A DNA stretch of 64,000 nucleotides from Bacteroidales bacterium (lineage in GTDB: Bacteria > Bacteroidota > Bacteroidia > Bacteroidales > P3), in assembly GCA_024400545.1 (NCBI GenBank), contig JAKSMO010000003.1, forward strand, positions 1,170 through 65,169. Reading direction: 5' to 3'. Under the pieces are notes generated by a model. It did not search any database and was not told the DNA's origin. It saw only the letters and a list, made by a program, of their open reading frames with translations. Shown piece by piece: positions 23,759 to 35,245 of the stretch; the stretch's first letter is position 1; each line of letters begins with the position of its first letter. The translations under genes were made by a program, and so were the position numbers.

Positions 23759-25060
23759 ATGGATTACCTCTACGAAACACGTCGCTTAAAAGAATACTAC
23801 CAAGGACTTGCCAAGGCAGCCGCTTCCATCTTGCCAAAGCAGATGGAAGACGAACTTCGCCAAGACATCGCAGACCCTGCCACCGATCAGCAATATCGCG
23901 AAACCATGTCTTTCTGGGCTTTTGTGTTCCTGCCTTTCTTCAACACCATGGCCTATATTGTCAACAACCGATTCATTCATGAGGATGAGTCCAACATCCT
24001 CGGCGACCTCGACCCTCACAAGCCAACCCTGCCCCCGCAGTCTATCTATCAATTCCTGCTACGTCTCAACCCTATGCCAGCCGAGGAGTTTGTGCGCACC
24101 ATCCAAAGTTCATCTGCCGTCCACGACCACCTTTTAGATGCTCTAACGCAACGCGACGAAGCGCAGTTCTGCACCATCTTGAGCGAGAATCATTGCGGAC
24201 TCGATGTCATCAGCCACCTGTGCAACCAGTTGTGGGACAATGTAAGCGATGTTTTTACATTAGAAGAAAACGAAATACCGATCATGATGGAGGCTTCCCT
24301 TGGCATCACCCGCAGCATCAATGCCTCCACTCCAAACCCCATGATTCCTCACATGGAGCAGGTGGTGCGGTCCGGCGAGCGGCTGGAAGCCGAAGACTCG
24401 GACAAGAATTTCCAGCAGTACATCATTGACTTTAACACCTTTCTCTGCAAATATTTTACCTATCTCATATCGCACTACCTTGACTGGCAAGCGTATTTTT
24501 CCCAGCAAGAAGCCGACCTTCTCAGCCAAATCCTGGCGCGCCCCGAAGGACAGATGCAGTATCAAGCAGCCTTGGCGCAATATCATCAGCAGCAATCCGC
24601 TGCGCACGATGACCTTTCCGCTGCGACCCTGTCCTGGACTCTGCCGTCCGACTTCTTCACCCTTCGTTGCGATGCTGCCCATTGTGAAGAGTATCTTGCC
24701 ATCAACGATGAAATCATCTCGGCCGGTGCCGACAAGTTCGCCCAGCTAATCAACTACTTGGCCGAGAACGACTACATCGGTTCGTCAGCCCAGACCAAAC
24801 AACTTCTGGCCTATCGGCTGGTCGGCAAGATGCGCCCCGATGATGTTGACACGCTAGAATGGCACGGCCACAACAACCAGCCCTACGAGCTCATCTATCT
24901 CATCAAACATCTCTCTGCCCGGGCCAACTACCGCAAGATGCGCCAGTTCTTCACTGGTCCGCAATGGGTCAAAGACCGCGACAGCAGCTATGCCAAGAGT
25001 GCCCATTACGACTTCCGCCGCTTCCTCCACCACCTCTATCCCACCTCATGTCCCCTCTAG
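23759..25060 (+). CDS. Hypothetical protein (433 aa)
   Basis: Long ORF with an ATG start, 35 nt after the ATPase stop. I recognise no motif. Confidence 0.55.
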   Translation: MDYLYETRRLKEYYQGLAKAAASILPKQMEDELRQDIADPATDQQYRETMSFWAFVFLPFFNTMAYIVNNRFIHEDESNILGDLDPHKPTLPPQSIYQFLLRLNPMPAEEFVRTIQSSSAVHDHLLDALTQRDEAQFCTILSENHCGLDVISHLCNQLWDNVSDVFTLEENEIPIMMEASLGITRSINASTPNPMIPHMEQVVRSGERLEAEDSDKNFQQYIIDFNTFLCKYFTYLISHYLDWQAYFSQQEADLLSQILARPEGQMQYQAALAQYHQQQSAAHDDLSAATLSWTLPSDFFTLRCDAAHCEEYLAINDEIISAGADKFAQLINYLAENDYIGSSAQTKQLLAYRLVGKMRPDDVDTLEWHGHNNQPYELIYLIKHLSARANYRKMRQFFTGPQWVKDRDSSYAKSAHYDFRRFLHHLYPTSCPL

Positions 25061-25262
25061 CTCTGCATCCTTACAGTCATGCTTTATGTCGGGGCGAACA
25101 AGTATATAAGTTTATGAGGGACTGGCTTAGTAGCATAATTGATTTGGCGCAGAAGTTGGCAACTTCTTCCGTTTTTAAGAAGGAGGGGGGCAGCCTCACG
25201 CCTGCAGAAAATCAGTTTGTGATAAAAGACCTCTAGGACTTGGCGAATAACGGTACCCTGAC

Positions 25263-25826
25263 TTAGTGCGAATCCAGCTCACCCACAAAATACCTTTTTG
25301 CCGTTTCTGCCGTGGCTTTATATTTGTTCTTAATGAGATACTGAAGCGTTGCTTGGAGCGACCTCATTTCAGGAACATCCTTCATGCCCCAGAAAAGCTT
25401 TGTGAACCTAGAGTCCAAATTGGATGTATTCTGCTTGGATTCTGACAAGAAATTCTTAAAGTCCGTAGGCAAATCATATTTTTCCAAACTTATCTTATTC
25501 TCAGCCGCATTATCAAGAATAAACTTATCAATTGCAGGATTAATTGTGATCAGATATTGTGAGCGACTATTATGCTTGAATAATGTCAGATGACTTGTTT
25601 CTGCAATCTTGCTGCATTGGCTAAAGAAATTATTCTTGCGATGCTGAACACGATCCAAGTCGATAATACCTATAGCGAACCTATCTTTGAACGTATTGTT
25701 CAAACTTCCAATTACATTGTTGCAACCATGCTGATGATTAACCGTACCATGTACTAAGGTCTGTATCAGATTTGTGTCAACGAAACACTCTGGGATAACT
25801 TCTGGATGGTCTAATTTATTCTTCAT
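25263..25826 (-). CDS. Small partner protein of the upstream ATPase, possibly PIN/Toprim-like
   Basis: 187 aa with a 4-nt overlap with the ATPase gene. The N-terminal ECFVDTNLIQTLV and the later GIIDLD are acidic motifs reminiscent of PIN/Toprim nucleases. This is a weak call made by eye only. Confidence 0.6.
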   Translation of the reverse strand: MKNKLDHPEVIPECFVDTNLIQTLVHGTVNHQHGCNNVIGSLNNTFKDRFAIGIIDLDRVQHRKNNFFSQCSKIAETSHLTLFKHNSRSQYLITINPAIDKFILDNAAENKISLEKYDLPTDFKNFLSESKQNTSNLDSRFTKLFWGMKDVPEMRSLQATLQYLIKNKYKATAETAKRYFVGELDSH

Positions 25827-27007
25827 AGATATGCTTCAAAATTAAAAAACAAATCAACCCCATTATAAATCGTATCCTCAATCATATCCTCGGAGAATGA
25901 GACAACATCATATTGATCATCATCGATTGGTCTTGTCATATATAATCGAAAATCTTTCGGACGATACTCCAACATTTGATTTAGCACATAAGGGCTATGT
26001 GTTGTCACGAAAATGGTATGCTTCCTATCACCGGCCATCAACCGATCCAGAATCCAGTTGATGAACTTATACTGAGTTGGAGGAAATAGGTTGTTTTCAG
26101 GTTCCTCTAGGAATATTTCGCTATGGTCAGTCTTTAGCAATCGATTCACATAACCATTAAATTTCTCTCGCTCCTCTTCAGTGCTAAACAGGTACGATTG
26201 CAGCTTGCTATTGAGGTAAAATTCAGTAGTCACTTTCTTTGAACCGCTTTTGGTTGCAAGACAACGGTTATAAATGATGTCGAATGTATGCTTGATTTCT
26301 GCGACCTTATTCAAGGAAAGATTTTGGAGATTCTTCTTTTCATCATCAAAGATTCCATTAAGAAGATAGTCCGTATGCACAAACAAAGGCATAAGCGACT
26401 GAATACCGCTGGATGTTTCAGCCAATTCCAATTCTTTACCACTTTTGAGAACAACAAGATCTTTCTCCTCTGTAGAATCAAAGTGGTAGTTTATTCCTAG
26501 ATTTAGTACGTTTTCTGTAGCGGCTTTGCTTCTTCGCGAAACATCCCACTCTTCCATAAATTCTTGAAGATGCGGGGATACATTTGACAAACCTTTATAA
26601 TCTTTAAAGAGAGAAACAACATTTCTGTCAGATGTGATGTAAGAAACTTTTGGTCTACAGTACCTCCAAGCGTTTCTATTCGTTTTGCAAGAGAATTTTG
26701 CCCTGGGCTTAGCATTGTCAAACGCAAACTTAAGATATGTGGTGCTATATTCAATATAAGAATCTTGTTTCAGGTAATTTCCCATGCCGTAATAATTGAT
26801 CAGATGCTCAATAAAGCAATTCTCCTTCTCAAAATAATCAGAAGATTGGAGTAGCATTATTCTTTTCTCTACCCATGAGCAGAAGCTAGCAATACGCAAG
26901 ATAGAACTTTTCCCCGAACTCTGCACGCCAAAAATCACATTCACCCGATCCAGTTCTATGTCGGCGTTACGTAGCGGTCCAAATCTTTTTACAATCAGAT
27001 GTTTCAT
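25823..27007 (-). CDS. ABC-like P-loop ATPase (AAA_21-type)
   Basis: 394 aa. Motifs: Walker A GVQSSGKSS, LEEPENNLFP, and H-loop TTHSPYVL. Confidence 0.75.
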   Translation of the reverse strand: MKHLIVKRFGPLRNADIELDRVNVIFGVQSSGKSSILRIASFCSWVEKRIMLLQSSDYFEKENCFIEHLINYYGMGNYLKQDSYIEYSTTYLKFAFDNAKPRAKFSCKTNRNAWRYCRPKVSYITSDRNVVSLFKDYKGLSNVSPHLQEFMEEWDVSRRSKAATENVLNLGINYHFDSTEEKDLVVLKSGKELELAETSSGIQSLMPLFVHTDYLLNGIFDDEKKNLQNLSLNKVAEIKHTFDIIYNRCLATKSGSKKVTTEFYLNSKLQSYLFSTEEEREKFNGYVNRLLKTDHSEIFLEEPENNLFPPTQYKFINWILDRLMAGDRKHTIFVTTHSPYVLNQMLEYRPKDFRLYMTRPIDDDQYDVVSFSEDMIEDTIYNGVDLFFNFEAYL

Positions 27008-27089
27008 TATATTTCAATCGTTTGCGAGACACAACTGTAAGTCGATGCTGCGGCATGCAGAATCAAGTTGGTATACTTTTTTTCAGTTG

Positions 27090-27097
27090 CAAAGATA
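27090..27097 (-). promoter_or_regulatory. -7 promoter box (TATCTTTG on the minus strand) for the ATPase/partner operon
   Basis: The plus strand reads caaagata. The box is 83 nt upstream of ATG 27007. Confidence 0.45.
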
Positions 27098-27629
27098 CGA
27101 TTTTTTTTCAAAATACTGCTTTTGTTTGTTTAAAACCAACTTAAATTATGAATCATTGGTGATGTTCGGCACAAAAAATCCTCTCAGCATTTCACTAAGG
27201 AGATGAAATGAAAAAAGTGATACAATGTGTCGTTTTGTCAAGTTGTCATTTTGTAATTTTTTCAATTCTTTCCAAGCAAGCTTGGCTAGAAGGACTGAAA
27301 GAAATTATCAGAAATGTTCCAGAAATTATTGACAACTAGCAATTTCTGATTAACAATGACTTTCTCGGATTTTCACTGGAAATCCTCGTCTTTCAGTGCA
27401 TAAGTTTCGCTTGCGAAACTTAAATAATCCAATTATTAGAGGCTACGCAGAATTATCCGAAGTAACCAACTTCAGGGCGTATTGTAGCGAAATCTGGTCT
27501 ATTGGAGAATATCTGACAACAACCGCGTCAGCCATCTCGCTCTTTTTGAGGGAGGGGGTGGGGCAGGGCGTTTCATGGCTATAGTTACCTATAATTGCCT
27601 ATGGCTCGACGAATCCGAGGATTTTTTTG

Positions 27630-27637
27630 TACTTTTG
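27630..27637 (+). promoter_or_regulatory. -7 promoter box (TACTTTTG)
   Basis: Matches TAnnTTTG and is preceded by a T-run. It is the first of three same-strand boxes upstream of the operon. Confidence 0.35.
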
Positions 27638-27737
27638 CAACACCTAAACAGAGCAGCGCGACACAAATAAAAGACTGAATCATATTGCTTTGGAAAGGAA
27701 AGTCAAGGAGCAAAGGCATTGTTTCAAAAAAAGTGCG

Positions 27738-28060
27738 TATCTTTGCACTCGGAAAACGGCGAGCGACATGCCGTTTCCACACAAAGGTAGCATTACTATC
27801 GTCAGTGTATAGGAATTTGCCCAAATCCCATTGCCAACATGACGAGAAACCGGTGCCTTACTACTTGACGAATGTTCTCGGCGAGAGCCGTTGGACATAT
27901 CCTCCAAGCATAGTACTAGGTCTGAAATCTCTGTTGGCAAGGTCGGGCAAAACCTCTATACGCAGCGATCAGGACCCCGGTTCTATGCTTTTTCTTTGTG
28001 TCACCCGCTCAGCAGAGACACCCACAATACTCCGCCTTGACAGGTTGCAGAACATGAAAA
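27738..28060 (+). ncRNA. Leader-like unit A: promoter box plus a ~300-nt non-coding transcript homologous to the operon 5' UTR
   Basis: TATCTTTG box at 27738..27745. A 5' hairpin pairs GGAAAACGGC with GCCGTTTCC (27751..27778). An internal helix pairs AAGCATAG (27906..27913) with CTATGCTT (27983..27990). The conserved box ggttctatgctttttctttgt lies at 27979..27999. The only ORF is a 3-codon ATG-AAA-AAT-TAA. Confidence 0.4.
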
Positions 28061-28106
28061 ATTAAGAAAAATTTGCAAATAAAGGCTCAGTATCAAAAAA
28101 AATGTG

Positions 28107-28435
28107 TATCTTTGCACCCGGAAATGGAAGAGAGTTTATTCCATTTTCATGCAGCGAAAGCATTTGTATAGGCCGTGAACTAAAAATCGCCAATTTTTAC
28201 AACAGAAGGTCTAGATACTGATGCCTTTCTATTACTTATCGTGCAAGTATGTGTCCCTATCATACTTCTCTTTAAGCATAGAATCGAAGGTCTTCTCAGT
28301 CTCTGTTTCTGTTAGGTGTTTGGCGATACCTTAGTTCCGCGGAGACGATACACCAGAGTTCTATGCTTTCTTTGTACCCAATTATTAACCGCCAACCCGG
28401 GAACTCTGTACGGCAACAAAAAGCATAATAAGCCT
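28107..28435 (+). promoter_or_regulatory. Leader unit B: promoter box plus a ~320-nt structured 5' UTR of the operon
   Basis: TATCTTTG box at 28107..28114. A 5' hairpin pairs GGAAATGGAA with TTCCATTTTC (28120..28148). A helix pairs AAGCATAGAA (28274..28283) with TTCTATGCTT (28359..28368). The unit runs into ATG 28436. Confidence 0.45.
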
Positions 28436-28657
28436 ATGCCGATATTCAGAATCACAGTAAAGAATCCCAAGTTCACCAGTGGAGTCAGGGTGGAGAAAGG
28501 CATGTCTGTAGATGTGGTCACCAACAGCATGGTCAACCCTGTCACAACCAATGGCGGCCAAGAAGTAGCCAACGCCTTTATGAGAATCTACGGAATCGAC
28601 ATCAAAAAAGTCGGTGCCCTCAACATGGCTTATTTGGATGTAGAACGAATTAACTAA
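28436..28657 (+). CDS. Small protein P1 (73 aa)
   Basis: The track ORF starts at GTG 28316 inside the leader. The first ATG at 28436 gives MPIFRITVKNPKFTSGVRVEKGMSVDVV... Confidence 0.55.
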   Translation: MPIFRITVKNPKFTSGVRVEKGMSVDVVTNSMVNPVTTNGGQEVANAFMRIYGIDIKKVGALNMAYLDVERIN

Positions 28658-28671
28658 AATAAATCAAAAAT

Positions 28672-29256
28672 ATGATTGATAATATTCTATTAAATGCAAG
28701 TTCTAATGGGATTGGCCCTTTAGGATGGATTATTATTGGTGGTATAGCGATTGGTGGAGCTGCTTATTGGGCAAAAAAAGGAGAAAAGGATCAAGGTCAA
28801 ACCTCGAGTTCAAATCCCGAGCCAGATTCAAAACCCCATGTCCTATCAGACACACCAAACCAAGTTGAAGCGAAGAAGACTTTCTTGAACAATATTAACG
28901 TCTTCATTCCATTATTAAGATGTACCTCGGACACTAGAGAATCGAAAGATGCTTGGACTGACGCGATTATTGGTACAAATGACTTCAACTTGATTTCTTA
29001 TTGGAAATTGTGTTCCACCAAACCCTTTTCTACTTGGCGCAATGTGCTTGCTTCATGGGGGATAAAAGCAGAGACGTGCACAAGCTTCGTTTACGGTGAT
29101 TTGCTCAAGGGAATGTACATCACACATAACAAATCTGACTTAATTGTTGGCAAAGAATATATTGTTGTTGAACCTTGTTGGTTACAAACTTATGAAGACA
29201 GCAAAGGGAAAACAGTTAAAAGAATACTTTTAGCTGGCGTCGTAAGAGAAAAATAG
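28672..29256 (+). CDS. P2: single-pass membrane protein with a glycine-zipper TM (194 aa)
   Basis: The N-terminal GPLGWIIIGGIAIGGAAYWA is followed by a polar linker and a ~120-aa domain. It starts 14 nt after P1. Confidence 0.6.
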   Translation: MIDNILLNASSNGIGPLGWIIIGGIAIGGAAYWAKKGEKDQGQTSSSNPEPDSKPHVLSDTPNQVEAKKTFLNNINVFIPLLRCTSDTRESKDAWTDAIIGTNDFNLISYWKLCSTKPFSTWRNVLASWGIKAETCTSFVYGDLLKGMYITHNKSDLIVGKEYIVVEPCWLQTYEDSKGKTVKRILLAGVVREK

Positions 29257-29279
29257 ATTCCCTAAAAATAAGATTGAAC

Positions 29280-29870
29280 ATGGCAAAACTTCATACCTAT
29301 AACATTTGCTTTATCGGTAGAACAGGCAACGGGAAAACAAGCTTAATAAACGCATTGTTTAACACCCAATTTCCGACTGACACTCTTGTTGCATGCACAA
29401 AAGAAATGTATTCAGTCACCACTATGGATATCCACCCTATTGGATATGATGCAACAAGTGTTTATGACACACCTGGTATCGGAGAGTTTTCAACAAACGA
29501 CCGATACCAACGGTACTACGAGGATGCAGTTGCAAAAGCCAATTGTGTGGTACTTGTCACAACAATGGATCGTACAGATGCACCTGCCCAACGATTACTG
29601 ATGAGCCTAAAGCAAATTGCACATGAGAGAGACACCAAATTTGTAATTGCTCTCAACCATATTGACTCTAGAATCGTGGCAGACAATGACGAATATAATC
29701 CATGGGACGATAACACAAACTCACCAACAGAATCATGTTTGGCTAAGGTGCAAGAAAGAATTACAATTATCCAGCAGAAATTTGACAACAAGTTTTTGCC
29801 TTTTAATGTAATTCCTGTTTGTGCGAAAAGGAAATACAATATTGACCAATTATTACATATACTATTATGA
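29280..29870 (+). CDS. P3: small TRAFAC GTPase (MMR_HSR1-like)
   Basis: The track starts at TTG 29274, and ATG 29280 gives MAKLHTYNICFIG. Motifs: G1 GRTGNGKTS, G3 DTPGIG, G4 variant LNHID, G5-like VCAK. Confidence 0.75.
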   Translation: MAKLHTYNICFIGRTGNGKTSLINALFNTQFPTDTLVACTKEMYSVTTMDIHPIGYDATSVYDTPGIGEFSTNDRYQRYYEDAVAKANCVVLVTTMDRTDAPAQRLLMSLKQIAHERDTKFVIALNHIDSRIVADNDEYNPWDDNTNSPTESCLAKVQERITIIQQKFDNKFLPFNVIPVCAKRKYNIDQLLHILL

Positions 29871-30691
29871 GTGACCAAAACGAGTATAAATTCCTAGTTG
29901 AACAGATTTTTGCTGCCATTTTAGGAAATAATGTTTCTCAAGAAGATAAAGAAAAAGTCTTCGGAGCATTGGACAAAGAAATCAAGGATAAGCCATTTAG
30001 GGTTGCCGTTATCGGACAGTCCGGTGTTGGAAAATCAACCACGTTAAACGCGGTTTTTGGATTGGAAAATTACACCTCCAGTGTTGCCGAGGGCACAACG
30101 GATATCATCGAAAAAGTGTTCCCTATGAGAGATGGGTTTAACCTCTCGATTTATGATATGCCTGGGCTAAATAATGATGTTGACAAAGACATCGAGTACG
30201 AGAAAATGTATCAGAAGATTCTTCCGGAATGTGATGTAATTGTCTATATTATCAATGCCCATTCAAGAGATTTGGGTGAAGATTGTAGAATCCTAAAAGA
30301 TGTGGTCTTACCTATTTGCTCTGAAAATAAATTGATGGATAATCTAATTCTAGCATTTAACAAGATAGACACCATTGGAGAAACAGAAGACCCTAATGAC
30401 CCAGAACTTCAATGGGATATAGTGCGGAACCTTCCAACAGAAAAGCTGAAAAAGGCCATAAAAATCAAATTGTCTGATTTGAATGATAAATTAATTGATG
30501 AGCAATTGGTAATGAACGGTGTAGAAAATGCCATCTCAACCGACAAGGTTGTGTTTTATTCTGCACAGTTTAACTACAATCTAGGATGCCTTCTCGAAGC
30601 TATCACTAAAGCTGGTAAACGAGGCTGGATTTGGACTGCGACAGTTGGCTTTGAAAGAATCGGCAAATGGAGCGACAAACGATTGATGTAA
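29867..30691 (+). CDS. P4: small TRAFAC GTPase (MMR_HSR1-like)
   Basis: 274 aa with an ATGA overlap with P3. Motifs: G1 GQSGVGKST, G2 EGTTD, G3 DMPGLN, G4 FNKID. Confidence 0.75.
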   Translation: MSDQNEYKFLVEQIFAAILGNNVSQEDKEKVFGALDKEIKDKPFRVAVIGQSGVGKSTTLNAVFGLENYTSSVAEGTTDIIEKVFPMRDGFNLSIYDMPGLNNDVDKDIEYEKMYQKILPECDVIVYIINAHSRDLGEDCRILKDVVLPICSENKLMDNLILAFNKIDTIGETEDPNDPELQWDIVRNLPTEKLKKAIKIKLSDLNDKLIDEQLVMNGVENAISTDKVVFYSAQFNYNLGCLLEAITKAGKRGWIWTATVGFERIGKWSDKRLM

Positions 30692-30696
30692 AATCT

Positions 30697-31107
30697 ATGG
30701 CAAAACTCAATCTATGGAAATATGAATCTTTTCTATCCAAACATGATACTGGTAATATGACAGAAGAACAAAAAAGACAATACAATGAATTGTCCCCAAA
30801 TGGGAAAGCTGAGTACTTAAAGTCAATGGAAAGACATCCTGATTGGTCTCATAATCAACATATGGCCAAAGTTTCTATTATGGAACAAGCTGACGCAACT
30901 ATTGAGGATGGCGGTGTAAATGTAAATCCTAGTGACCCAAAACTGTGGAAAATTGTTTTGGAAAAGGCCAGCTCATTTTTGCATACAATCGGTGCTCTAA
31001 CTAAAGAAATCAAACAAAAATTTGACTATGCTCTTGGCGCAATTAAGTCGTTAATTTCCATGGGCGTAAAAAAAATTGGAGATATCATAACCTCTATTTT
31101 TGGCTAA
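30697..31107 (+). CDS. P5: small helical protein, paralog of P6
   Basis: The likely start is MAKLNLWKYE at ATG 30697; the track start 30667 overlaps P4. It shares the core HPDWS..GG.(N/D).(N/D)P.DP.L.K with P6. Confidence 0.6.
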   Translation: MAKLNLWKYESFLSKHDTGNMTEEQKRQYNELSPNGKAEYLKSMERHPDWSHNQHMAKVSIMEQADATIEDGGVNVNPSDPKLWKIVLEKASSFLHTIGALTKEIKQKFDYALGAIKSLISMGVKKIGDIITSIFG

Positions 31108-31160
31108 GCAAACTGCTACTAAATATAGAATAATAACTTATTTACTTAATTATAATTCAT

Positions 31161-31487
31161 ATGAATAACGAACTGTTCGAAAACATGAAAAAACTCCATC
31201 CTGATTGGAGTGATGCGCAAATTTGGACTGCCATTAGCTTGGACATGGAAAGTGAAAAGCAAATTGAAAAAGGCGGGAAAGACATTGACCCTAATGACCC
31301 TGGCCTGTTAAAGTCCATTGTAGCAGGTGCTAGAGCATGGCTCAAAGAAGTTCTTCCGATTATTTTCGAGAAAGTAAAAGCATTCTTTGATTACATCAAA
31401 GACCATATCGGAGAGTGGGTCGCTGCTGGTCTTGAGGCTGTTAAGAGATGGATTGGCGAAATCCTGCCTACATTTATCGGCTTCTAA
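31161..31487 (+). CDS. P6: small helical protein, paralog of P5
   Basis: 108 aa. LHPDWSDAQIWTAISLDMESEKQIEKGGKDIDPNDPGLLKSIV aligns with the P5 segment RHPDWSHNQHMAKVSIMEQADATIEDGGVNVNPSDPKLWKIVL. Confidence 0.6.
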   Translation: MNNELFENMKKLHPDWSDAQIWTAISLDMESEKQIEKGGKDIDPNDPGLLKSIVAGARAWLKEVLPIIFEKVKAFFDYIKDHIGEWVAAGLEAVKRWIGEILPTFIGF

Positions 31488-31501
31488 TCAAGTTGTGTCG
31501 A

Positions 31502-31532
31502 AAATAGGGGATAGCCTTGCTTTCCCCTATTT
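31502..31532 (+). promoter_or_regulatory. Intra-operon hairpin with a 9-bp stem
   Basis: AAATAGGGG (31502..31510) pairs with CCCCTATTT (31524..31532) around a 13-nt loop. No T-run follows. Confidence 0.45.
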
Positions 31533-31583
31533 CCGATACATATGAACTACCCAGACTAAAGTTAAACAAGCGTAATACGTATT

Positions 31584-32216
31584 ATGGCTGAAAAAGAAGT
31601 TTCTCAGAGTACAATAATGAAAGCAATGGACTGGGCATACGACAAAGCTGTGAACGGAATCCCAGGTTTTGACTCAGCAGAGGACATGGCTCACGACTAT
31701 CTTCAAGGAGATGGATCATTAAGAGATAAGGCCAATCGATTGATTCGATGGCAAAATGCAAAGTCAGGAACATCAGGATTTGTAACTGGCCTTGGTGGAC
31801 TACTAACATTGCCACTCACTCTTCCTGCAAATATTACTAGTGTGTTATATGTCCAGATTAGAATGATTGCCGCAATCGCAAAGATGGGAGGATATGACCT
31901 TAAAGACGACCGCGTAAAATCATTAGTATATTCTTGCTTGGTGGCCACCTCTGCTGCTGATGTGGTAAAGCAAACAGGACTAAAAATAGGCGAGAAAATT
32001 GCAGTCAATGCCGTCAAAAACATATCAAAAGAAACAATAAAACAAATTAATGCAAAAGTTGGATTTAAGCTCTTTACAAAGTTCGGAGAGAAAGGGGTAA
32101 TCAACATTGGTAAAACCATTCCAATTTTAGGAGGTCTTATTGGTGGTATTTTTGATGTTGTCAGCACCAATACTATCGGCAATGTTGCAAGAGACACATT
32201 CATCCCTAGACCTTAG
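31584..32216 (+). CDS. P7: EcsC/DUF697-like protein with glycine-zipper segments (tentative)
   Basis: 210 aa, with GTSGFVTGLGGLLTLPLTLPANITSVLYVQIRMIAAIAKMGG and IPILGGLIGGIFDVVS. The family assignment is by eye only. Confidence 0.55.
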   Translation: MAEKEVSQSTIMKAMDWAYDKAVNGIPGFDSAEDMAHDYLQGDGSLRDKANRLIRWQNAKSGTSGFVTGLGGLLTLPLTLPANITSVLYVQIRMIAAIAKMGGYDLKDDRVKSLVYSCLVATSAADVVKQTGLKIGEKIAVNAVKNISKETIKQINAKVGFKLFTKFGEKGVINIGKTIPILGGLIGGIFDVVSTNTIGNVARDTFIPRP

Positions 32217-32302
32217 TTCAAATAACACACGCTGATGTCAATTGGCAGCCTGATAAAACAGTAAATATCAAATTCTTTCGTTTTTCAAGGAAAACCAATT
32301 AC

Positions 32303-32719
32303 ATGAAAATAGAATTATCATTTGAAGAGATTCTGTCGGTTTTGGCAGATAATTATAACATTCCGAGCCTTAGAGTGACACAAGTTGACGAGAACACCAT
32401 CAAAATTGCCAAACCTTTATTGATTGTTTCTCCGTCCGTGAAGGTCTCAATTATGGATGTGAGCGATAATGATATTATCATTCATCAAAACAAGCTAACC
32501 ACAGCAGCTACTAAGATTCTCGATTTCTTTGGTTCCAATATTAACACATCAGTTGTAAGCATGGCCGATGACAGAATCACTATTCACCTAAAGCAAATCC
32601 CTCAACTGGCCAAAGTACTTGAGAAAGTAAACCTTGAAAACATTCGATTTACGAATGATTCTGTAGTCTTGAACTTGTCAGCAGTTCATCCACTTAAATT
32701 CAAGACGAATTTATCATGA
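32303..32719 (+). CDS. P8: hypothetical protein (138 aa)
   Basis: ATG-initiated ORF on the same strand. I recognise no motif. Confidence 0.5.
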   Translation: MKIELSFEEILSVLADNYNIPSLRVTQVDENTIKIAKPLLIVSPSVKVSIMDVSDNDIIIHQNKLTTAATKILDFFGSNINTSVVSMADDRITIHLKQIPQLAKVLEKVNLENIRFTNDSVVLNLSAVHPLKFKTNLS

Positions 32720-32752
32720 AACCAAAATCAGACATACTTAATACATACTTTT

Positions 32753-34486
32753 ATGATAAATGAAGACACTCTTATTGATCTGACACTGGAGGTTGCCAAA
32801 TATTATTTCAAGAAAAACAACCCCATTCTAAAAGAGGCAAAAGTCTCTGTTGATCGTGTAGCAGCAAAGCACCTCAGCCAGAAGCTTATGGATGTTATAA
32901 AAAAACATGCTAATGTTGTTTCGTTGGCGGGCATGGCAGATGCTATTCCTGCGGTAGGAGCGGCTGTGGACATTGGCGCAGTGATAGCATCCACATGGAA
33001 AATGTATGCTGGGATAAATGAATGTTTAGGAATCTCTATCTCCGAAAATAAATTGAAGTCCATGGCATCCGGGGTAGTGTCAAATTTAGCTGGCAATGGA
33101 GTTGGGTATGCGGCGCATTCTGTGGCGAATGGGGTCGCCACATCAGTTCCAATATTTGGCAATGTTGTAGGTGCCGTCTGTGGTTGTGTGGTCAACCGTG
33201 CGTCATTATATACTTCAGCTGCGACTTATCTGAATATTATGTGTAAGATAATGTCTTCTGGTGGCACATTTGATGAAAATTCATTGTCCGACCTTACCAG
33301 TAACAATCGGCACATATGGAATGATCCCTATTCTGAAGTTATCAACATAGGAACGATAGGGCATGCAGGGCACGGAAAGTCAACGCTGACGGCTGCTATA
33401 ACTCAGGTTTTAGCCTGTTATGGGACATGCGAAACTGTGTCGGTAAGAGATTTGGATCGTGCACCTAATGAAATCCAACAGGGTGTTTCTATCCAGACGG
33501 CCCATATAGGATACGCCATTAATGACATTCAGTTCCATCACATTGACTGTCCTGGTCATGCTAACTATGTGAAGAATATGATTGTAGGATCAAGCCAAAT
33601 GGATGCGGCCATACTTGTTGTTGCTGCAACTGATGGTCCAATGCCACAAACACGAGAGCACCTCTTATTAGCACGACAAAATGGAATAAAAAAAATAATA
33701 GTATTCCTGAACAAAATTGAGGTAATAGATGATGATGATTTACTCGATTTAGTTGAATTCGAGATTAGAGAACTATTAGATACTTATGATTATGATGGAA
33801 CCAGCACACCCATCATAAGAGGCTCGGCATTGCAAGCACTCAAGGGCAATCGAACTGCAATTCAATCAGTCGAAAACCTAATCCATGAAATGAGTTTGTT
33901 GCCCTTACCCAAAAGATGTATTTCAAAACCATTCAGACTACCTGTTGAGAAAGCAATACCGATAGACAATTACACTGTACAAATTATGGGTACTGTCAAT
34001 ACTGGCAGAATCACTATTGGGGAAAAAATTGATATTGTTGGATTAATGAATGAATCAATTACTGCCAGTGTGATGTCTATCCAAGTTGATAACCATGATT
34101 CTTCATATTGCCAAGCAGGAATGTACGCCTCTCTCATATTAAATGGAGATTTCAAAAACAAAGTGAAAAGAGGGGCTACTGCAGCAGCAATAGATACAGT
34201 CTACCCATCATCCTGCTTTGAGGCTTCTGCTTATATTTTAAAAAAGGAAGAAGGTGGACGCCAAACTGCATTTCGCAATAACTATCAACCTCAATTTTAC
34301 ATCGGAACAGCAAACATAACAGGCACAATTTCACTTCCTGATAGTAGAATCCTGGCCAACCCCGGCGACAACCTCACGTTCAAGGTAAAATTAAGTATGC
34401 CTTTGGCAATTAATCAGTACGAAAGGTTTTCCATGAGAGATAATGGCAAAACTATTGGGGCAGGAATAATAACAAAATTACTTTAA
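32753..34486 (+). CDS. P9: divergent EF-Tu paralog (all three domains) fused to a ~190-aa N-terminal glycine-zipper domain
   Basis: 577 aa. From ~aa 195 it is collinear with EF-Tu. Matching segments are INIGTIGHAGHGKSTLTAAIT (G1), DCPGHANYVKNMI (G3), ILVVAATDGPMPQTREHLLLARQ, IIVFLNKIEVIDDDDLLDLVEFEIRELL (G4 region), PIIRGSALQAL (G5) and the C-terminus GKTIGAGIITKLL. The N-terminus carries AIPAVGAAVDIGAVIAS and VPIFGNVVGAVCGCVVN. Confidence 0.85.
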   Translation: MINEDTLIDLTLEVAKYYFKKNNPILKEAKVSVDRVAAKHLSQKLMDVIKKHANVVSLAGMADAIPAVGAAVDIGAVIASTWKMYAGINECLGISISENKLKSMASGVVSNLAGNGVGYAAHSVANGVATSVPIFGNVVGAVCGCVVNRASLYTSAATYLNIMCKIMSSGGTFDENSLSDLTSNNRHIWNDPYSEVINIGTIGHAGHGKSTLTAAITQVLACYGTCETVSVRDLDRAPNEIQQGVSIQTAHIGYAINDIQFHHIDCPGHANYVKNMIVGSSQMDAAILVVAATDGPMPQTREHLLLARQNGIKKIIVFLNKIEVIDDDDLLDLVEFEIRELLDTYDYDGTSTPIIRGSALQALKGNRTAIQSVENLIHEMSLLPLPKRCISKPFRLPVEKAIPIDNYTVQIMGTVNTGRITIGEKIDIVGLMNESITASVMSIQVDNHDSSYCQAGMYASLILNGDFKNKVKRGATAAAIDTVYPSSCFEASAYILKKEEGGRQTAFRNNYQPQFYIGTANITGTISLPDSRILANPGDNLTFKVKLSMPLAINQYERFSMRDNGKTIGAGIITKLL

Positions 34487-34504
34487 TATTTTCATAGATA
34501 TTCG

Positions 34505-34873
34505 ATGAAATCAAACTCCATTGAATTTAATCAGAACGCACGGCGGGTTTATACTGCGGTGAGGCATACTTTTGAGACTTGCGATATGTTTCATCGGGTG
34601 AAGTGCGACGATATGAACTTTGTGATTACTGCCAAGCATGGGGCTAGTCTGCTGGCTTTGGGTGAGAATATCAAGGTGAGGGTGGTGGCAACTAGCACCC
34701 AAAGCAGCAAGGTGGTGGTGGAGTCGGGCAACCAATTCCCCATCAACATCCTCAACATAGGGCAGAACAAGCAGAACGTCACCACCCTCACCGAGTTCAT
34801 AGCCAACCGTGTATATCGACTCTGCAGCGATGAGGAAATCAAATTGCGCCCTACAGAAATCAAATTCAAATAG
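34505..34873 (+). CDS. P10: hypothetical protein (122 aa)
   Basis: It starts 18 nt after P9 on the same strand and is visibly more GC-rich than P1-P9. I recognise no motif. Confidence 0.5.
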   Translation: MKSNSIEFNQNARRVYTAVRHTFETCDMFHRVKCDDMNFVITAKHGASLLALGENIKVRVVATSTQSSKVVVESGNQFPINILNIGQNKQNVTTLTEFIANRVYRLCSDEEIKLRPTEIKFK

Positions 34874-35169: not shown

Positions 35170-35245
35170 TGGAGCGATAGACGGGGTTCGAACCCGCGAC
35201 CTGCGGCTTGGGAAGCCGCCGCTCTGCCAACTGAGCTACTATCGC
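35170..35245 (-). tRNA. tRNA-Gly (anticodon CCC), CCA encoded
   Basis: The reverse complement is GCGATAGTAGCTCAGTTGGCAGAGCGGCGGCTTCCCAAGCCGCAGGTCGCGGGTTCGAACCCCGTCTATCGCTCCA. It folds as a cloverleaf: 7-bp acceptor stem, GCTC/GAGC D stem, GCGGC/GCCGC anticodon stem with loop TTCCCAA, and T-loop TTCGAAC. Confidence 0.93.

What the first reader, a model, noticed from the sequence alone, without database searches (positions are those of the whole stretch)
27630..28435. Two tandem homologous promoter plus structured-leader units (period ~369 nt) upstream of the operon; one is an orphan ncRNA-like copy
Seen in the sequence:
- The TATCTTTGCAC promoter box occurs twice, at 27738 and 28107, each preceded by an A-run.
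- Each box is followed within ~6 nt by a 10-bp hairpin whose arms differ between the copies but stay complementary. Unit A pairs GGAAAACGGC with GCCGTTTCC, and unit B pairs GGAAATGGAA with TTCCATTTTC. These are compensatory changes.
- Both units share internal blocks (gtatagg, AGGTCT..TCTCTGTT).
- Both share a long-range helix, AAGCATAG with CTATGCTT, enclosing ~65-75 nt (27906/27983 in A and 28274/28359 in B).
- Both share a 3' box gttctatgcttt(t)ctttgt at 241-250 nt from the promoter box.
- Unit B runs into the P1 start codon. Unit A ends in a 3-codon mini-ORF and is followed by unit B.
- A third TACTTTTG box sits at 27630.

Inference: this is a structured cis-regulatory leader of unknown ligand or partner, plus a duplicated stand-alone copy that could act as an sRNA, decoy or antitoxin-like RNA for the system.
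Basis: partly seen in the sequence, partly recalled or inferred. Interest (0 to 1): 0.7.

Follow-up and report, generated by a model that had tools for sequence, protein, structure and literature searches.

The report
New phage-type leader RNA, two copies
The two repeated units are real copies of a large folded RNA, absent from Rfam, that sits behind a strong promoter in front of swappable accessory and defence genes in gut Bacteroidales prophages and genomic islands, and probably acts as an on/off switch for those genes.

Summary
Units A (27750-28000) and B (28119-28378) are diverged paralogues (nhmmer E about 1e-5 to 1e-14). Each starts at a consensus Bacteroidota promoter.

They belong to a large RNA family with no Rfam 15 match. 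A profile found it in 71 of 127 IMG/VR viral loci fetched, in two metagenome contigs and in five contigs carrying the same tandem. The RNA always follows a TAnnTTTG promoter. It usually ends 40-60 nt before the ATG of an unrelated gene: lipoproteins, Mrr- and HsdR_N-type nucleases, an HTH protein, or DUF6140 here.

Covariation supports several helices: a long stem (P3a, invariant P3b AUCGCCAA/UUGGCGAU, hypervariable P4), helix P2 that crosses it, and two mutually exclusive helices, H5 and P5. G-U asymmetry assigns the RNA to the + strand.

Best reading: a bistable, attenuator-like 5' leader gating mobile cargo. That it is a structured RNA is shown. The leader role is well supported. The switching mechanism is inferred.

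Unit A is intact, as conserved as unit B, and has no cargo gene; its role is open.

Corrections: the promoter box is generic, the 'gtatagg' block is not homologous, and the mini-ORF is not conserved.

The parts
27630..27637 (+). Third promoter-like box TACTTTTG, about 100 nt upstream of promoter A. Conserved in L001 and L003. No RNA unit follows it.
   Evidence: nhmmer run with --max finds no family match in 27000-27760.
27738..27745 (+). Promoter A: Bacteroidota -7 box TATCTTTG, with the inferred start near 27749-27751.
   Evidence: The same 19-mer precedes tRNA genes, RNase P RNA and many other genes in Bacteroidota. Pairwise difference among five contigs is 0.016.
27750..28000 (+). Unit A RNA, about 250 nt, a cargo-less paralogue.
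- P1 hairpin: 27751-27760 / 27770-27778.
- P2: GCAT..TCGTCA 27790-27804 with TGACGA..GTGC 27840-27856.
- P3a: GTATAGG 27807-27813 with TCTATAC 27955-27961.
- P3b: UUUGCCC 27816-27822 with GGGCAAA 27945-27951. This is the only member with a changed P3b, and the change is compensatory.
- P4: TTGCCAAC 27831-27838 with GTTGGCA 27933-27939.
- P5: 27906-27925 with 27969-27991.
- U-rich tract: 27989-27999.
   Evidence: Family profile E = 2.6e-23. Helices. Constraint. Frameshifting indels among close relatives exclude the overlapping 126-aa ORF, which also has no Pfam match.
28107..28114 (+). Promoter B: -7 box TATCTTTG.
28119..28378 (+). Unit B RNA, about 260 nt, the 5' leader of the DUF6140 operon.
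- P1 hairpin: 28120-28129 / 28139-28148.
- P2: 28159-28174 with 28208-28224.
- P3a: GAACTAA 28177-28183 with TTAGTTC 28331-28337.
- P3b: AUCGCCAA 28186-28193 with UUGGCGAU 28320-28327.
- P4: ACAGAA 28202-28207 with TTCTGT 28307-28312.
- P5: AAGCATAGAA..CAGTCTCTG 28274-28305 with CGGAGAC..GTTCTATGCTT 28340-28368.
- U-rich tract: 28366-28375.
   Evidence: Family profile E = 9e-29. Helices. The ATG lies 59 nt after the RNA end.
28436..28657 (+). P1, a 73-aa DUF6140 protein and the first cargo gene behind unit B.
   Evidence: Pfam PF19637, E = 1.4e-34. 710 homologues were found.
28672..34873 (+). Rest of the cargo operon: a 194-aa unknown, two small LeoA/LeoBC-like GTPases, 146- and 108-aa unknowns, an EcsC-like protein matching PDC-S29, a 138-aa unknown, a 577-aa DUF697-like plus EF-Tu fusion, and a 122-aa unknown.
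   Evidence: In L001, L002 and L086 different GTPase genes follow the same leader and P1.

Best explanation
Units A and B are two paralogous copies of an unannotated structured RNA family, 160-260 nt long, carried by temperate Bacteroidales phages and genomic islands.

Each copy is transcribed from its own near-consensus Bacteroidota promoter. It forms the 5' leader of whatever accessory or defence gene lies 40-60 nt downstream.

The RNA has two alternative sets of helices:
- Nested state: a long stem made of P3a, the invariant P3b (AUCGCCAA/UUGGCGAU) and P4, capped by hairpin H5. In H5, segment b pairs with segment a'.
- Two-hairpin state: P2 (a with b) and P5 (a' with b'). The long-stem strands lie in the loops of these two hairpins, and P5 is followed directly by a U-rich tract.

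Segments b and b' are near-identical direct repeats that compete for a'. The leader therefore most likely works as a transcription-attenuation-type switch: P5 plus the U-tract is the off state, and long stem plus H5 is read-through. An unknown factor, possibly one that recognises the invariant P3b region, would set the balance.

In the window, unit B gates the DUF6140-GTPase operon. Unit A is an intact, selectively maintained copy without its own gene. It either ends at its own P5/U-tract as a roughly 250-nt RNA, or adds a second gate for transcripts from promoter A.

Status of each step:
- Shown: homology, family membership, covariation of all helices, strand, position relative to promoter and ATG, heterogeneous cargo.
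- Inferred: transcription start, termination at the U-tract, switching, and the existence of an effector.
For: Homology and family:
- A and B are homologous.
- The same tandem occurs in L001, L003, L004 and L086 at 92-97% identity.
- Divergent single copies occur in L222 and L216.
- 71 of 127 IMG/VR loci match the profile at E <= 1e-3.

Structure:
- RNAalifold on four divergent copies gives 14 compensatory pairs.
- Self versus non-self duplex energies: P3a -10.4 vs -3.9, P4 -10.9 vs -5.8, P2 -19.4 vs -13.9, P5 -28.4 vs -18.7 kcal/mol.
- P3a at fixed offsets in 28 versions: 176 Watson-Crick, 13 G-U, 2 A-C.
- On alignment A4, P2+P5+P3/P4 are 87% paired vs 77% in shuffles and 33-45% when slid. 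37 of 56 pairs show double changes, vs 17.6 expected (0 of 500 shuffles reach this).
- H5 is 92.7% paired with 4 compensatory pairs. P5 has 14 of 16 compensatory pairs. Both competing helices are therefore under selection.
- Dual-partner segments are sequence-invariant, while single-partner P4 and P3a are hypervariable.

Strand and leader position:
- The + strand folds better for P2 in 48 of 48 versions and for P5 in 41 of 53.
- A promoter box lies directly upstream in the members inspected.
- The distance from RNA end to the ATG of unrelated genes is usually 40-60 nt.
- T fraction is 0.75 in the 9 nt after the P5 core, against 0.31 overall.

Cargo and context:
- Cargo includes Mrr and HsdR_N nucleases and lipoproteins.
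- In prophages the cassette lies between the capsid and portal modules, or between endolysin and integrase.
- The window cargo has PADLOC hits to LeoA/LeoBC and PDC-S29.

Constraint: units A and B differ by 0.029 and 0.034 among five contigs. The comparison values are 0.088 at P1 third positions and 0.136 in the upstream spacer.
Against: - No transcript data exist, so starts, ends and termination are all inferred.
- P5 encloses 40-75 nt, unlike canonical intrinsic terminators with small loops.
- In nested energy models the long-stem state is about 17 kcal/mol more stable than the two-hairpin state. Switching would therefore need kinetic trapping or a factor.
- P2/P5 and the long stem use different nucleotides. 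All could coexist in a compact double pseudoknot rather than alternate.
- The cargo is functionally heterogeneous, which argues against a metabolite riboswitch and leaves the signal unknown.
- Unit A and L222 have no gene within 100 nt, so the RNA can exist without cargo.
- The family alignment was seeded by a 16-mer in P3b, so the invariance of P3b is partly an ascertainment effect.
Confidence: 0.55

Rival explanations
1. The RNA adopts one compact double-pseudoknot fold. P2, the long stem and P5 form simultaneously, with the long stem bent at its two internal loops. It acts as a static aptamer or protein-binding platform, or as a self-cleaving or otherwise catalytic RNA in the 5' UTR, without terminator switching.
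For: P2, P5 and P3a/P3b/P4 use non-overlapping nucleotides and all covary. The P3b helix and its flanking internal loops (GAAA....RCCU) are invariant across subfamilies. The RNA is large, as is typical of complex folds.
Against: H5 competes with both P2 and P5 for b and a'. It is itself 92.7% paired with compensatory changes, which a single static fold does not explain. Both ends of a roughly 21-25-bp composite stem would have to meet at the closing pairs of P2 and P5, which is sterically demanding (inference). No match to any ribozyme or riboswitch model in Rfam.
Confidence: 0.17
2. The units are stand-alone small RNAs of about 160-260 nt that end at P5 plus the U-tract and act in trans. Downstream genes are expressed only by incidental read-through. 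Unit A would then be the normal form and unit B a copy that happens to sit before P1.
For: Each unit has its own strong promoter and a U-rich tract after a long GC-containing helix. Unit A and L222 have no downstream ORF and are followed by a new promoter. Unit A is under constraint.
Against: In almost all members no second promoter box lies between the RNA and the ATG. The spacing is a tight 40-60 nt whatever the gene, as expected for a 5' UTR. No conserved single-stranded seed region is evident, and the conserved segments are all engaged in intramolecular pairings.
Confidence: 0.15
3. The leader is a P1 C4 / P4 CI-like, leader-embedded antisense system. The 5' hairpin domain is processed out, and its loop (the P3a-P3b-P4 5' strands) pairs in cis or trans with the complementary 3' loop of the same or an incoming element. 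This would give type-specific control, with P3a and P4 as specificity determinants. Units A and B would be orthogonal types.
For: The element is phage-borne. Two hairpin loops are complementary over about 21 bp. P4 and P3a are hypervariable between otherwise near-identical members, while their partners always match. A and B differ in P3a, P3b and P4.
Against: No match to Rfam C4 or any other family. The hypervariability is equally explained by P4 and P3a having only one partner each. The cargo consists of morons and defence genes, not antirepressor or replication genes. There is no evidence of processing.
Confidence: 0.08
4. The element is DNA-level rather than an RNA. Possibilities are an invertible promoter flanked by the inverted repeat 27978-27990 / 28274-28286, operator repeats for a DNA-binding regulator, or a recombination or attachment site of mobile cassettes.
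For: A 13-nt inverted repeat (92% complementary) flanks promoter B (I5). The region is a synteny break point with variable neighbours. L216 lies next to a tRNA 3' end.
Against: The inverted repeat is simply the b' segment of unit A and the a' segment of unit B. All five contigs have the same orientation. No recombinase gene was identified among the neighbouring genes scanned against Pfam. G-U over A-C asymmetry and the + strand energy advantage (48 of 48 for P2) point to RNA. No tRNA-derived direct repeat of 11 nt or more bounds the island.
Confidence: 0.03

Closest known systems
Transcription-attenuation leaders and riboswitch expression platforms (for example T-box, PyrR or RAT-type antitermination leaders)
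   Same: Promoter-proximal 5' UTR position. A shared strand (a') has two competing partners (b and b'). One of the competing helices is followed by a U-rich tract. A conserved core could bind an effector.
   Different: No sequence or structure match to any Rfam model. The putative terminator helix encloses 40-75 nt. The genes controlled are functionally unrelated mobile cargo rather than a coherent regulon. The effector is unknown. A long loop-loop complementary stem crosses P2.
Phage P1/P7 C4 antisense RNA and phage P4 CI RNA (leader-embedded immunity RNAs; from my own knowledge of Rfam C4 and the P4 literature)
   Same: Phage-borne RNA inside a leader transcript that carries segments complementary to other segments of the same transcript. 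Outcome is thought to be premature termination or lack of downstream expression. Variable pairing segments could define types.
   Different: Not detected by the Rfam C4 model. Much larger. Complementary segments lie in two hairpin loops of one unit. The cargo is morons and defence genes. Processing is not shown.
Processive antitermination RNAs of mobile or accessory operons (HK022 put, EAR, LoaP-dependent leaders; from my own knowledge)
   Same: Structured RNA directly after the promoter of phage or accessory operons. Can contain or override terminators in the leader.
   Different: No similarity in fold. put and EAR act on downstream terminators rather than containing a bistable terminator. 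No NusG-type partner gene was found among the neighbouring genes scanned against Pfam.
Tandem riboswitches (for example tandem glycine or TPP arrangements; from my own knowledge)
   Same: Two homologous structured units in series upstream of one operon.
   Different: Each unit here has its own promoter. The units are only about 60% identical, with orthogonal P3a, P3b and P4 sequences. Tandem arrangement was seen only in this window's lineage, not elsewhere in the family.
Anonymous candidate structured RNAs from IMG/VR and human gut metagenomes (PMC10690425, PMC8040213)
   Same: Same data sources (IMG/VR, gut metagenomes) and the same kind of evidence (covariation in intergenic regions upstream of genes).
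   Different: Those catalogues report models of at most 151 nt, with a mean of 67 nt (PMC10690425). No named motif matches. Sequence words of this RNA were not found in the searchable supplements. Fragments of this RNA may be present there unnamed, and I could not exclude that.

Membership tests
Any Rfam 15 family | Covariance-model match at or near the gathering score | tested here: not met
   Window at gathering threshold: only one tRNA. 27300-28700 at E <= 10: only noise on the opposite strand. Homologues L326, L327, L275, L323, L371, L222, L216, L341 and ten short-type loci gave no hit on the element.
Bacteroidota sigma-AB type promoter | -7 element TAnnTTTG a few nt upstream of the start | tested here: met
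   TATCTTTG at 27738 and 28107. The identical extended 19-mer precedes tRNA, RNase P RNA and many genes in Bacteroidota genomes.
Bacteroidota sigma-AB type promoter | Mapped transcription start or activity | not testable with these tools
   No transcript data available.
Attenuation-type leader (terminator/antiterminator switch) | Located between promoter and start codon of the regulated gene | tested here: met
   Promoter box directly upstream in the members inspected. The ATG usually lies 40-60 nt downstream across unrelated genes. Exceptions are unit A and L222.
Attenuation-type leader (terminator/antiterminator switch) | Two mutually exclusive helices sharing a strand, both evolutionarily maintained | tested here: met
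   H5 (b:a') is 92.7% paired with 4 compensatory pairs. P5 (a':b') is 80% paired with 14 of 16 compensatory pairs. Self vs non-self energy for P5 is -28.4 vs -18.7.
Attenuation-type leader (terminator/antiterminator switch) | Canonical intrinsic terminator: short-loop GC-rich hairpin immediately followed by a U-tract | tested here: inconclusive
   U-rich tract present (T fraction 0.75 vs 0.31), directly after P5. However, P5 encloses 40-75 nt.
Metabolite riboswitch | Regulated genes form a functionally coherent set related to the ligand | tested here: not met
   Cargo includes lipoproteins, Mrr and HsdR_N nucleases, a TPR membrane protein, an HTH protein and DUF6140 plus GTPases.
C4 / CI-type leader-embedded antisense RNA | Match to the C4 model; processed small RNA whose loops pair with targets in the same transcript | tested here: not met
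   No Rfam C4 hit. Intramolecular loop-loop complementarity exists, but processing cannot be tested.
Invertible promoter (inverton) | Inverted repeats flanking a promoter, both orientations present in populations, and a nearby invertase | tested here: not met
   An inverted repeat is present (I5). All five homologous contigs are collinear. No recombinase gene was identified among the neighbouring genes scanned against Pfam.
Tandem riboswitch | Two aptamer units within one UTR without an intervening promoter | tested here: not met
   A full promoter box (28107-28114) separates the units.

The most novel reading that the evidence does not exclude
This is a previously undescribed, phage-borne bistable RNA switch that serves as a universal 'expression adaptor' for mobile accessory and defence cassettes in gut Bacteroidales. 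A phage- or host-encoded factor, or an infection-linked signal, would be read through the invariant P3b core. That signal would flip the leader from terminator to read-through and so turn on prophage- and island-encoded defence genes on demand. Tandem orthogonal copies, as in this window, would provide two-input or trans-acting control.
Probability: 0.25. Interest if true: 0.85.

Novelty: new variant of a known kind. Interest (0 to 1): 0.62.

Why it matters
Structured 5' leaders are a known kind of regulator. This one would be a new and abundant class, 160-260 nt long, with crossing or competing helices.

It is tied to a position rather than to a pathway: the head of swappable moron and defence cassettes in temperate phages and genomic islands of gut Bacteroidales.

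If it is a switch, several things follow:
- It gives a handle on how prophage-encoded defence and lysogenic-conversion genes are regulated in a phylum whose promoters, translation initiation and RNA regulators differ from the model organisms.
- It gives a sequence marker for finding new cargo, such as candidate defence genes like the DUF6140-GTPase-EF-Tu operon here.
- The invariant P3b helix and the hypervariable P4 make clear, directly testable predictions.

Tried and rejected
1. Genome-wide scan with the promoter-hairpin 19-mer. It returned mostly unrelated promoters and was useful only to show that the box is generic and to find L086.
2. Metagenome scan with the 3' box. Almost all hits were chance, but two real divergent homologues (L216, L222) came out after nhmmer filtering.
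3. blastn of unit B, and of short- and mid-type members, against GenBank phages and PLSDB plasmids gave nothing useful: one unannotated 74% partial hit.
4. Inverton idea: rejected (see rivals).
5. Island integrated at the tRNA-Gly gene (35170-35245, - strand): no direct repeat of 11 nt or more between the tRNA region and 24900-27800.
6. A third RNA unit behind the 27630 box: none found.
7. Coding potential of unit A (126-aa TTG ORF 27685-28065): no Pfam match, and frameshifting indels occur among close relatives.
8. Other DUF6140 loci (P0107 and P0016 clusters): DUF6140 follows a large gene there and has no such leader. The RNA-DUF6140 link is therefore not general.
9. mafft-qinsi structural alignment was unavailable. 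I used anchor-based segment tests instead.
10. My first 'state A' constraint blocked only P3b, so it was not a real comparison. It was redone.
11. Literature: no paper mentions DUF6140. Keyword searches for a Bacteroidales prophage leader RNA found nothing specific.
Full report
**1. What is in the window**

The 1.4-kb gap between the minus-strand ATPase gene (ends 27007) and P1 (ATG 28436) holds two units with a 369-nt period.
- A 44-nt direct repeat (27712-27755 / 28081-28124, 84% identical) contains the box TATCTTTG at 27738 and 28107.
- The 12-mer GTTCTATGCTTT recurs at 27980 and 28358.
- Unit B used as an nhmmer query finds the unit A copies over about 250 nt at E = 1e-5. A profile built from B, L222 and L216 alone finds unit A at E = 3e-14. 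The two are therefore true, diverged paralogues.
- Both fold far better than shuffled controls, with z-scores of -4.3 and -3.0.
- Rfam 15 has nothing for this stretch.

**2. The promoter box is generic**

Scanning species-representative genomes with GTATCTTTGCACNCGGAAA gave more than 120 hits, almost all in Bacteroidota.
- The hits lie directly in front of tRNA genes, RNase P RNA, a TPP riboswitch and ordinary ORFs.
- This shows that both units start at near-consensus promoters, and it places the start near the first base of the 5' hairpin.
- The shared box itself is not evidence of homology.
- Only one of those hits, L086 (a Bacteroidales MAG), carries the real tandem, with spacing 366.

**3. 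Close relatives**

- P1 is a DUF6140 protein.
- Contigs encoding a 97% identical P1 (L001-L004) carry the same leader at 92-97% nucleotide identity, and so does L086. L001, L003, L004 and L086 hold both units; L002 begins inside the A-B spacer and shows only unit B.
- The genes after P1 differ between these contigs: dynamin-like and EF-Tu-like GTPases of several kinds.
- In L086 the ATPase pair at window 25263-27007 is missing. The locus is therefore a variable island whose break point lies at 27474.
- Pairwise differences among the five contigs are 0.029 for unit A and 0.034 for unit B. The comparison values are 0.088 at P1 third codon positions and 0.136 in the spacer upstream.
- Unit A is thus as constrained as unit B.
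- One-base indels among these relatives rule out the 126-aa ORF that overlaps unit A. The three-codon mini-ORF is not conserved.

**4. Distant relatives: a large family**

- A metagenome scan with the 3' box, filtered by nhmmer, gave two divergent single copies. L222 is followed by another promoter and an unrelated ORF. L216 lies just after a tRNA 3' end and is followed by a small HTH-like ORF.
- An IMG/VR scan with a 16-mer from the most conserved segment (GYGTTTGGCGATRCCT), followed by an iterated profile, matched 71 of 127 fetched viral loci at E <= 1e-3.
- Three size classes appear: about 255 nt (the window type), about 220 nt and about 165 nt.
- In the members inspected, a TAnnTTTG box lies just upstream.
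- The RNA usually ends 40-60 nt before the ATG of a gene that differs from locus to locus. These genes include many lipoproteins, small membrane proteins, an Mrr_N+Mrr_cat endonuclease, an HSDR_N endonuclease, a TPR protein and an HTH protein.
- In the mid-size class the cassette points against the flanking capsid and portal genes. In the one short-class locus examined (L269) it lies between the endolysin and the integrase. These are classic moron or lysogenic-conversion positions.
- None of these loci has an Rfam hit on the element.
- GenBank phages and PLSDB plasmids lack the element.

**5. Structure**

RNAalifold on the four divergent long copies already gave 14 compensatory pairs. Using the invariant pair AUCGCCAA / UUGGCGAU (P3b) as anchors, I compared each member's own partner segments with those of other members. 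The table gives mean duplex energies in kcal/mol.

| Helix | Self | Non-self |
|---|---|---|
| P3a | -10.4 | -3.9 |
| P4 | -10.9 | -5.8 |
| P2 | -19.4 | -13.9 |
| P5 | -28.4 | -18.7 |

- P3a counted at fixed offsets in 28 distinct versions has 176 Watson-Crick, 13 G-U, 2 A-C and 5 other pairs, with three to five pair types per position.
- On an 18-sequence alignment (A4), P2+P5+P3a/P3b/P4 are 87.1% paired. Shuffles give 76.9% and slid partners give 33-45%. Double changes occur in 37 of 56 pairs, against 17.6 expected, and 0 of 500 shuffles reach any of the five measures.
- The + strand folds better than the - strand for P2 in 48 of 48 versions and for P5 in 41 of 53. The structure therefore belongs to an RNA read from the + strand, not to DNA repeats.
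In relatives it becomes AAGCGTGGG/CCCACGCTT, AAGCGCGG/CCGCGCTT, CACGAGC/GTTCGTG and so on, and it extends to 15-25 bp.

**6. Competing helices**

The order of strands along the RNA is:

a, P3a5', P3b5', P4 5', b, a', P4 3', P3b3', P3a3', b', U-rich tract.

- P2 (a:b) crosses the long stem P3a-P3b-P4, so the full set of helices cannot be nested.
- Segments b and b' are near-identical direct repeats in the short class (AAUGCCCACG), and a' is complementary to both.
- H5 (b:a') is 92.7% paired with compensatory changes. P5 (a':b') also covaries.
- Segments with two partners are sequence-invariant. Single-partner P4 and P3a are hypervariable.
- Nested folding favours long stem plus H5 by about 17 kcal/mol over P2 plus P5.
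- P5 is followed by a tract that is 75% T, against 31% overall.
- I read this as a bistable attenuator-like leader. P2+P5+U-tract would be the terminated state, and long stem+H5 the read-through state.
- This mechanism is inferred. A single double-pseudoknot fold is the main rival.

**7. The window's two copies**

- Unit B is a standard member, 59 nt upstream of P1.
- Unit A keeps every helix. It is the only member seen with a changed P3b (UUUGCCC/GGGCAAA, compensatory), and it has no gene of its own.
- Its P3a, P3b and P4 differ from those of unit B, while the P5 cores are identical. That identity also explains the cross-unit inverted repeat around promoter B.
- Whether unit A ends as a roughly 250-nt RNA or gates transcripts from promoter A cannot be decided here.

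**8. Context**

- The cargo operon has PADLOC hits to LeoA/LeoBC-like GTPases and to PDC-S29.
- The neighbouring minus-strand ATPase matches PDC-M29A and AriA.
- This fits the defence and moron flavour of the cargo seen in phages.

**9. Novelty check**

- There is no Rfam family for this RNA.
- No paper mentions DUF6140, and keyword searches found no description of such a leader.
- Two large catalogues of anonymous candidate RNAs from IMG/VR and gut metagenomes could contain fragments of it. The IMG/VR catalogue (PMC10690425) reports models of at most 151 nt. Its supplements were not available, and the searchable files of the other held no matching words.
- I therefore call this a new class within a known kind (structured 5' leaders), with that caveat.

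Noticed in passing
window 25263-27007 (- strand): Two-gene module: a 394-aa AAA_15/AAA_21 ATPase (PADLOC PDC-M29A, E = 1.5e-51; AriA-like) plus a 187-aa protein with no family. It has its own TATCTTTG promoter at 27097 (- strand). The module is absent from the otherwise syntenic L086, so it looks like an inserted candidate defence pair.
   Followed up: partly
window 32753-34486 (+ strand): A 577-aa protein fuses a DUF697-like N-terminal region to a complete EF-Tu (GTP_EFTU, D2, D3). It is the last large gene of the operon, which also holds two small LeoA/LeoBC-like GTPases and an EcsC-like PDC-S29 protein (31584-32216). An EF-Tu paralogue in a defence-like operon is unusual.
   Followed up: partly
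L001, L002, L086 compared with window 28436-29300: The leader plus DUF6140 'head' is kept at 92-97% identity, while the genes immediately after DUF6140 differ: dynamin-like proteins of 541, 686 and 744 aa, a 602-aa GTP_EFTU/dynamin protein, or small GTPases. This suggests cassette exchange downstream of a conserved head.
   Followed up: partly
L005-L014 (other DUF6140 loci): Elsewhere DUF6140 is the second gene, after a roughly 570-aa unknown or a Sel1 protein. In L011-L014 it is followed by TerB/dynamin-like GTPases. A DUF6140-GTPase association therefore seems general and is undescribed; no papers mention DUF6140.
   Followed up: partly
L015-L134 (genome-contig hits): The extended motif GTATCTTTGCACNCGGAAA is a recurrent, near-identical promoter plus start region in front of tRNAs, RNase P RNA, a TPP riboswitch and many genes across Bacteroidales. 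It could serve as a strong-promoter marker.
   Followed up: yes
L345 4071-4170, L367 10055-10152, L279 10236-10319: RT-17 RNA (RF03020) is present in three of the ten short-type phage contigs scanned that also carry the leader RNA, so these phages probably carry a reverse-transcriptase element.
   Followed up: no
L216 1-54 and 154-405: Here the leader RNA starts about 100 nt after the 3' end of a tRNA gene on the same strand. This is the kind of place where integrative elements end.
   Followed up: partly
L371 6825-6996, L381 4348-4519, L339 5192-5363: The family profile also matches the reverse complement of the same elements (E about 3e-4 to 1e-3). This is a side effect of the RNA's two mutually complementary halves and could mislead strand assignment in automated screens.
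   Followed up: partly
window 27474-27700: This stretch is conserved with L001, L003 and L086 but is much more variable than the units (0.136 pairwise difference). It contains a G-rich run (27551-27570) and the third promoter-like box at 27630. Its function is unknown.
   Followed up: partly
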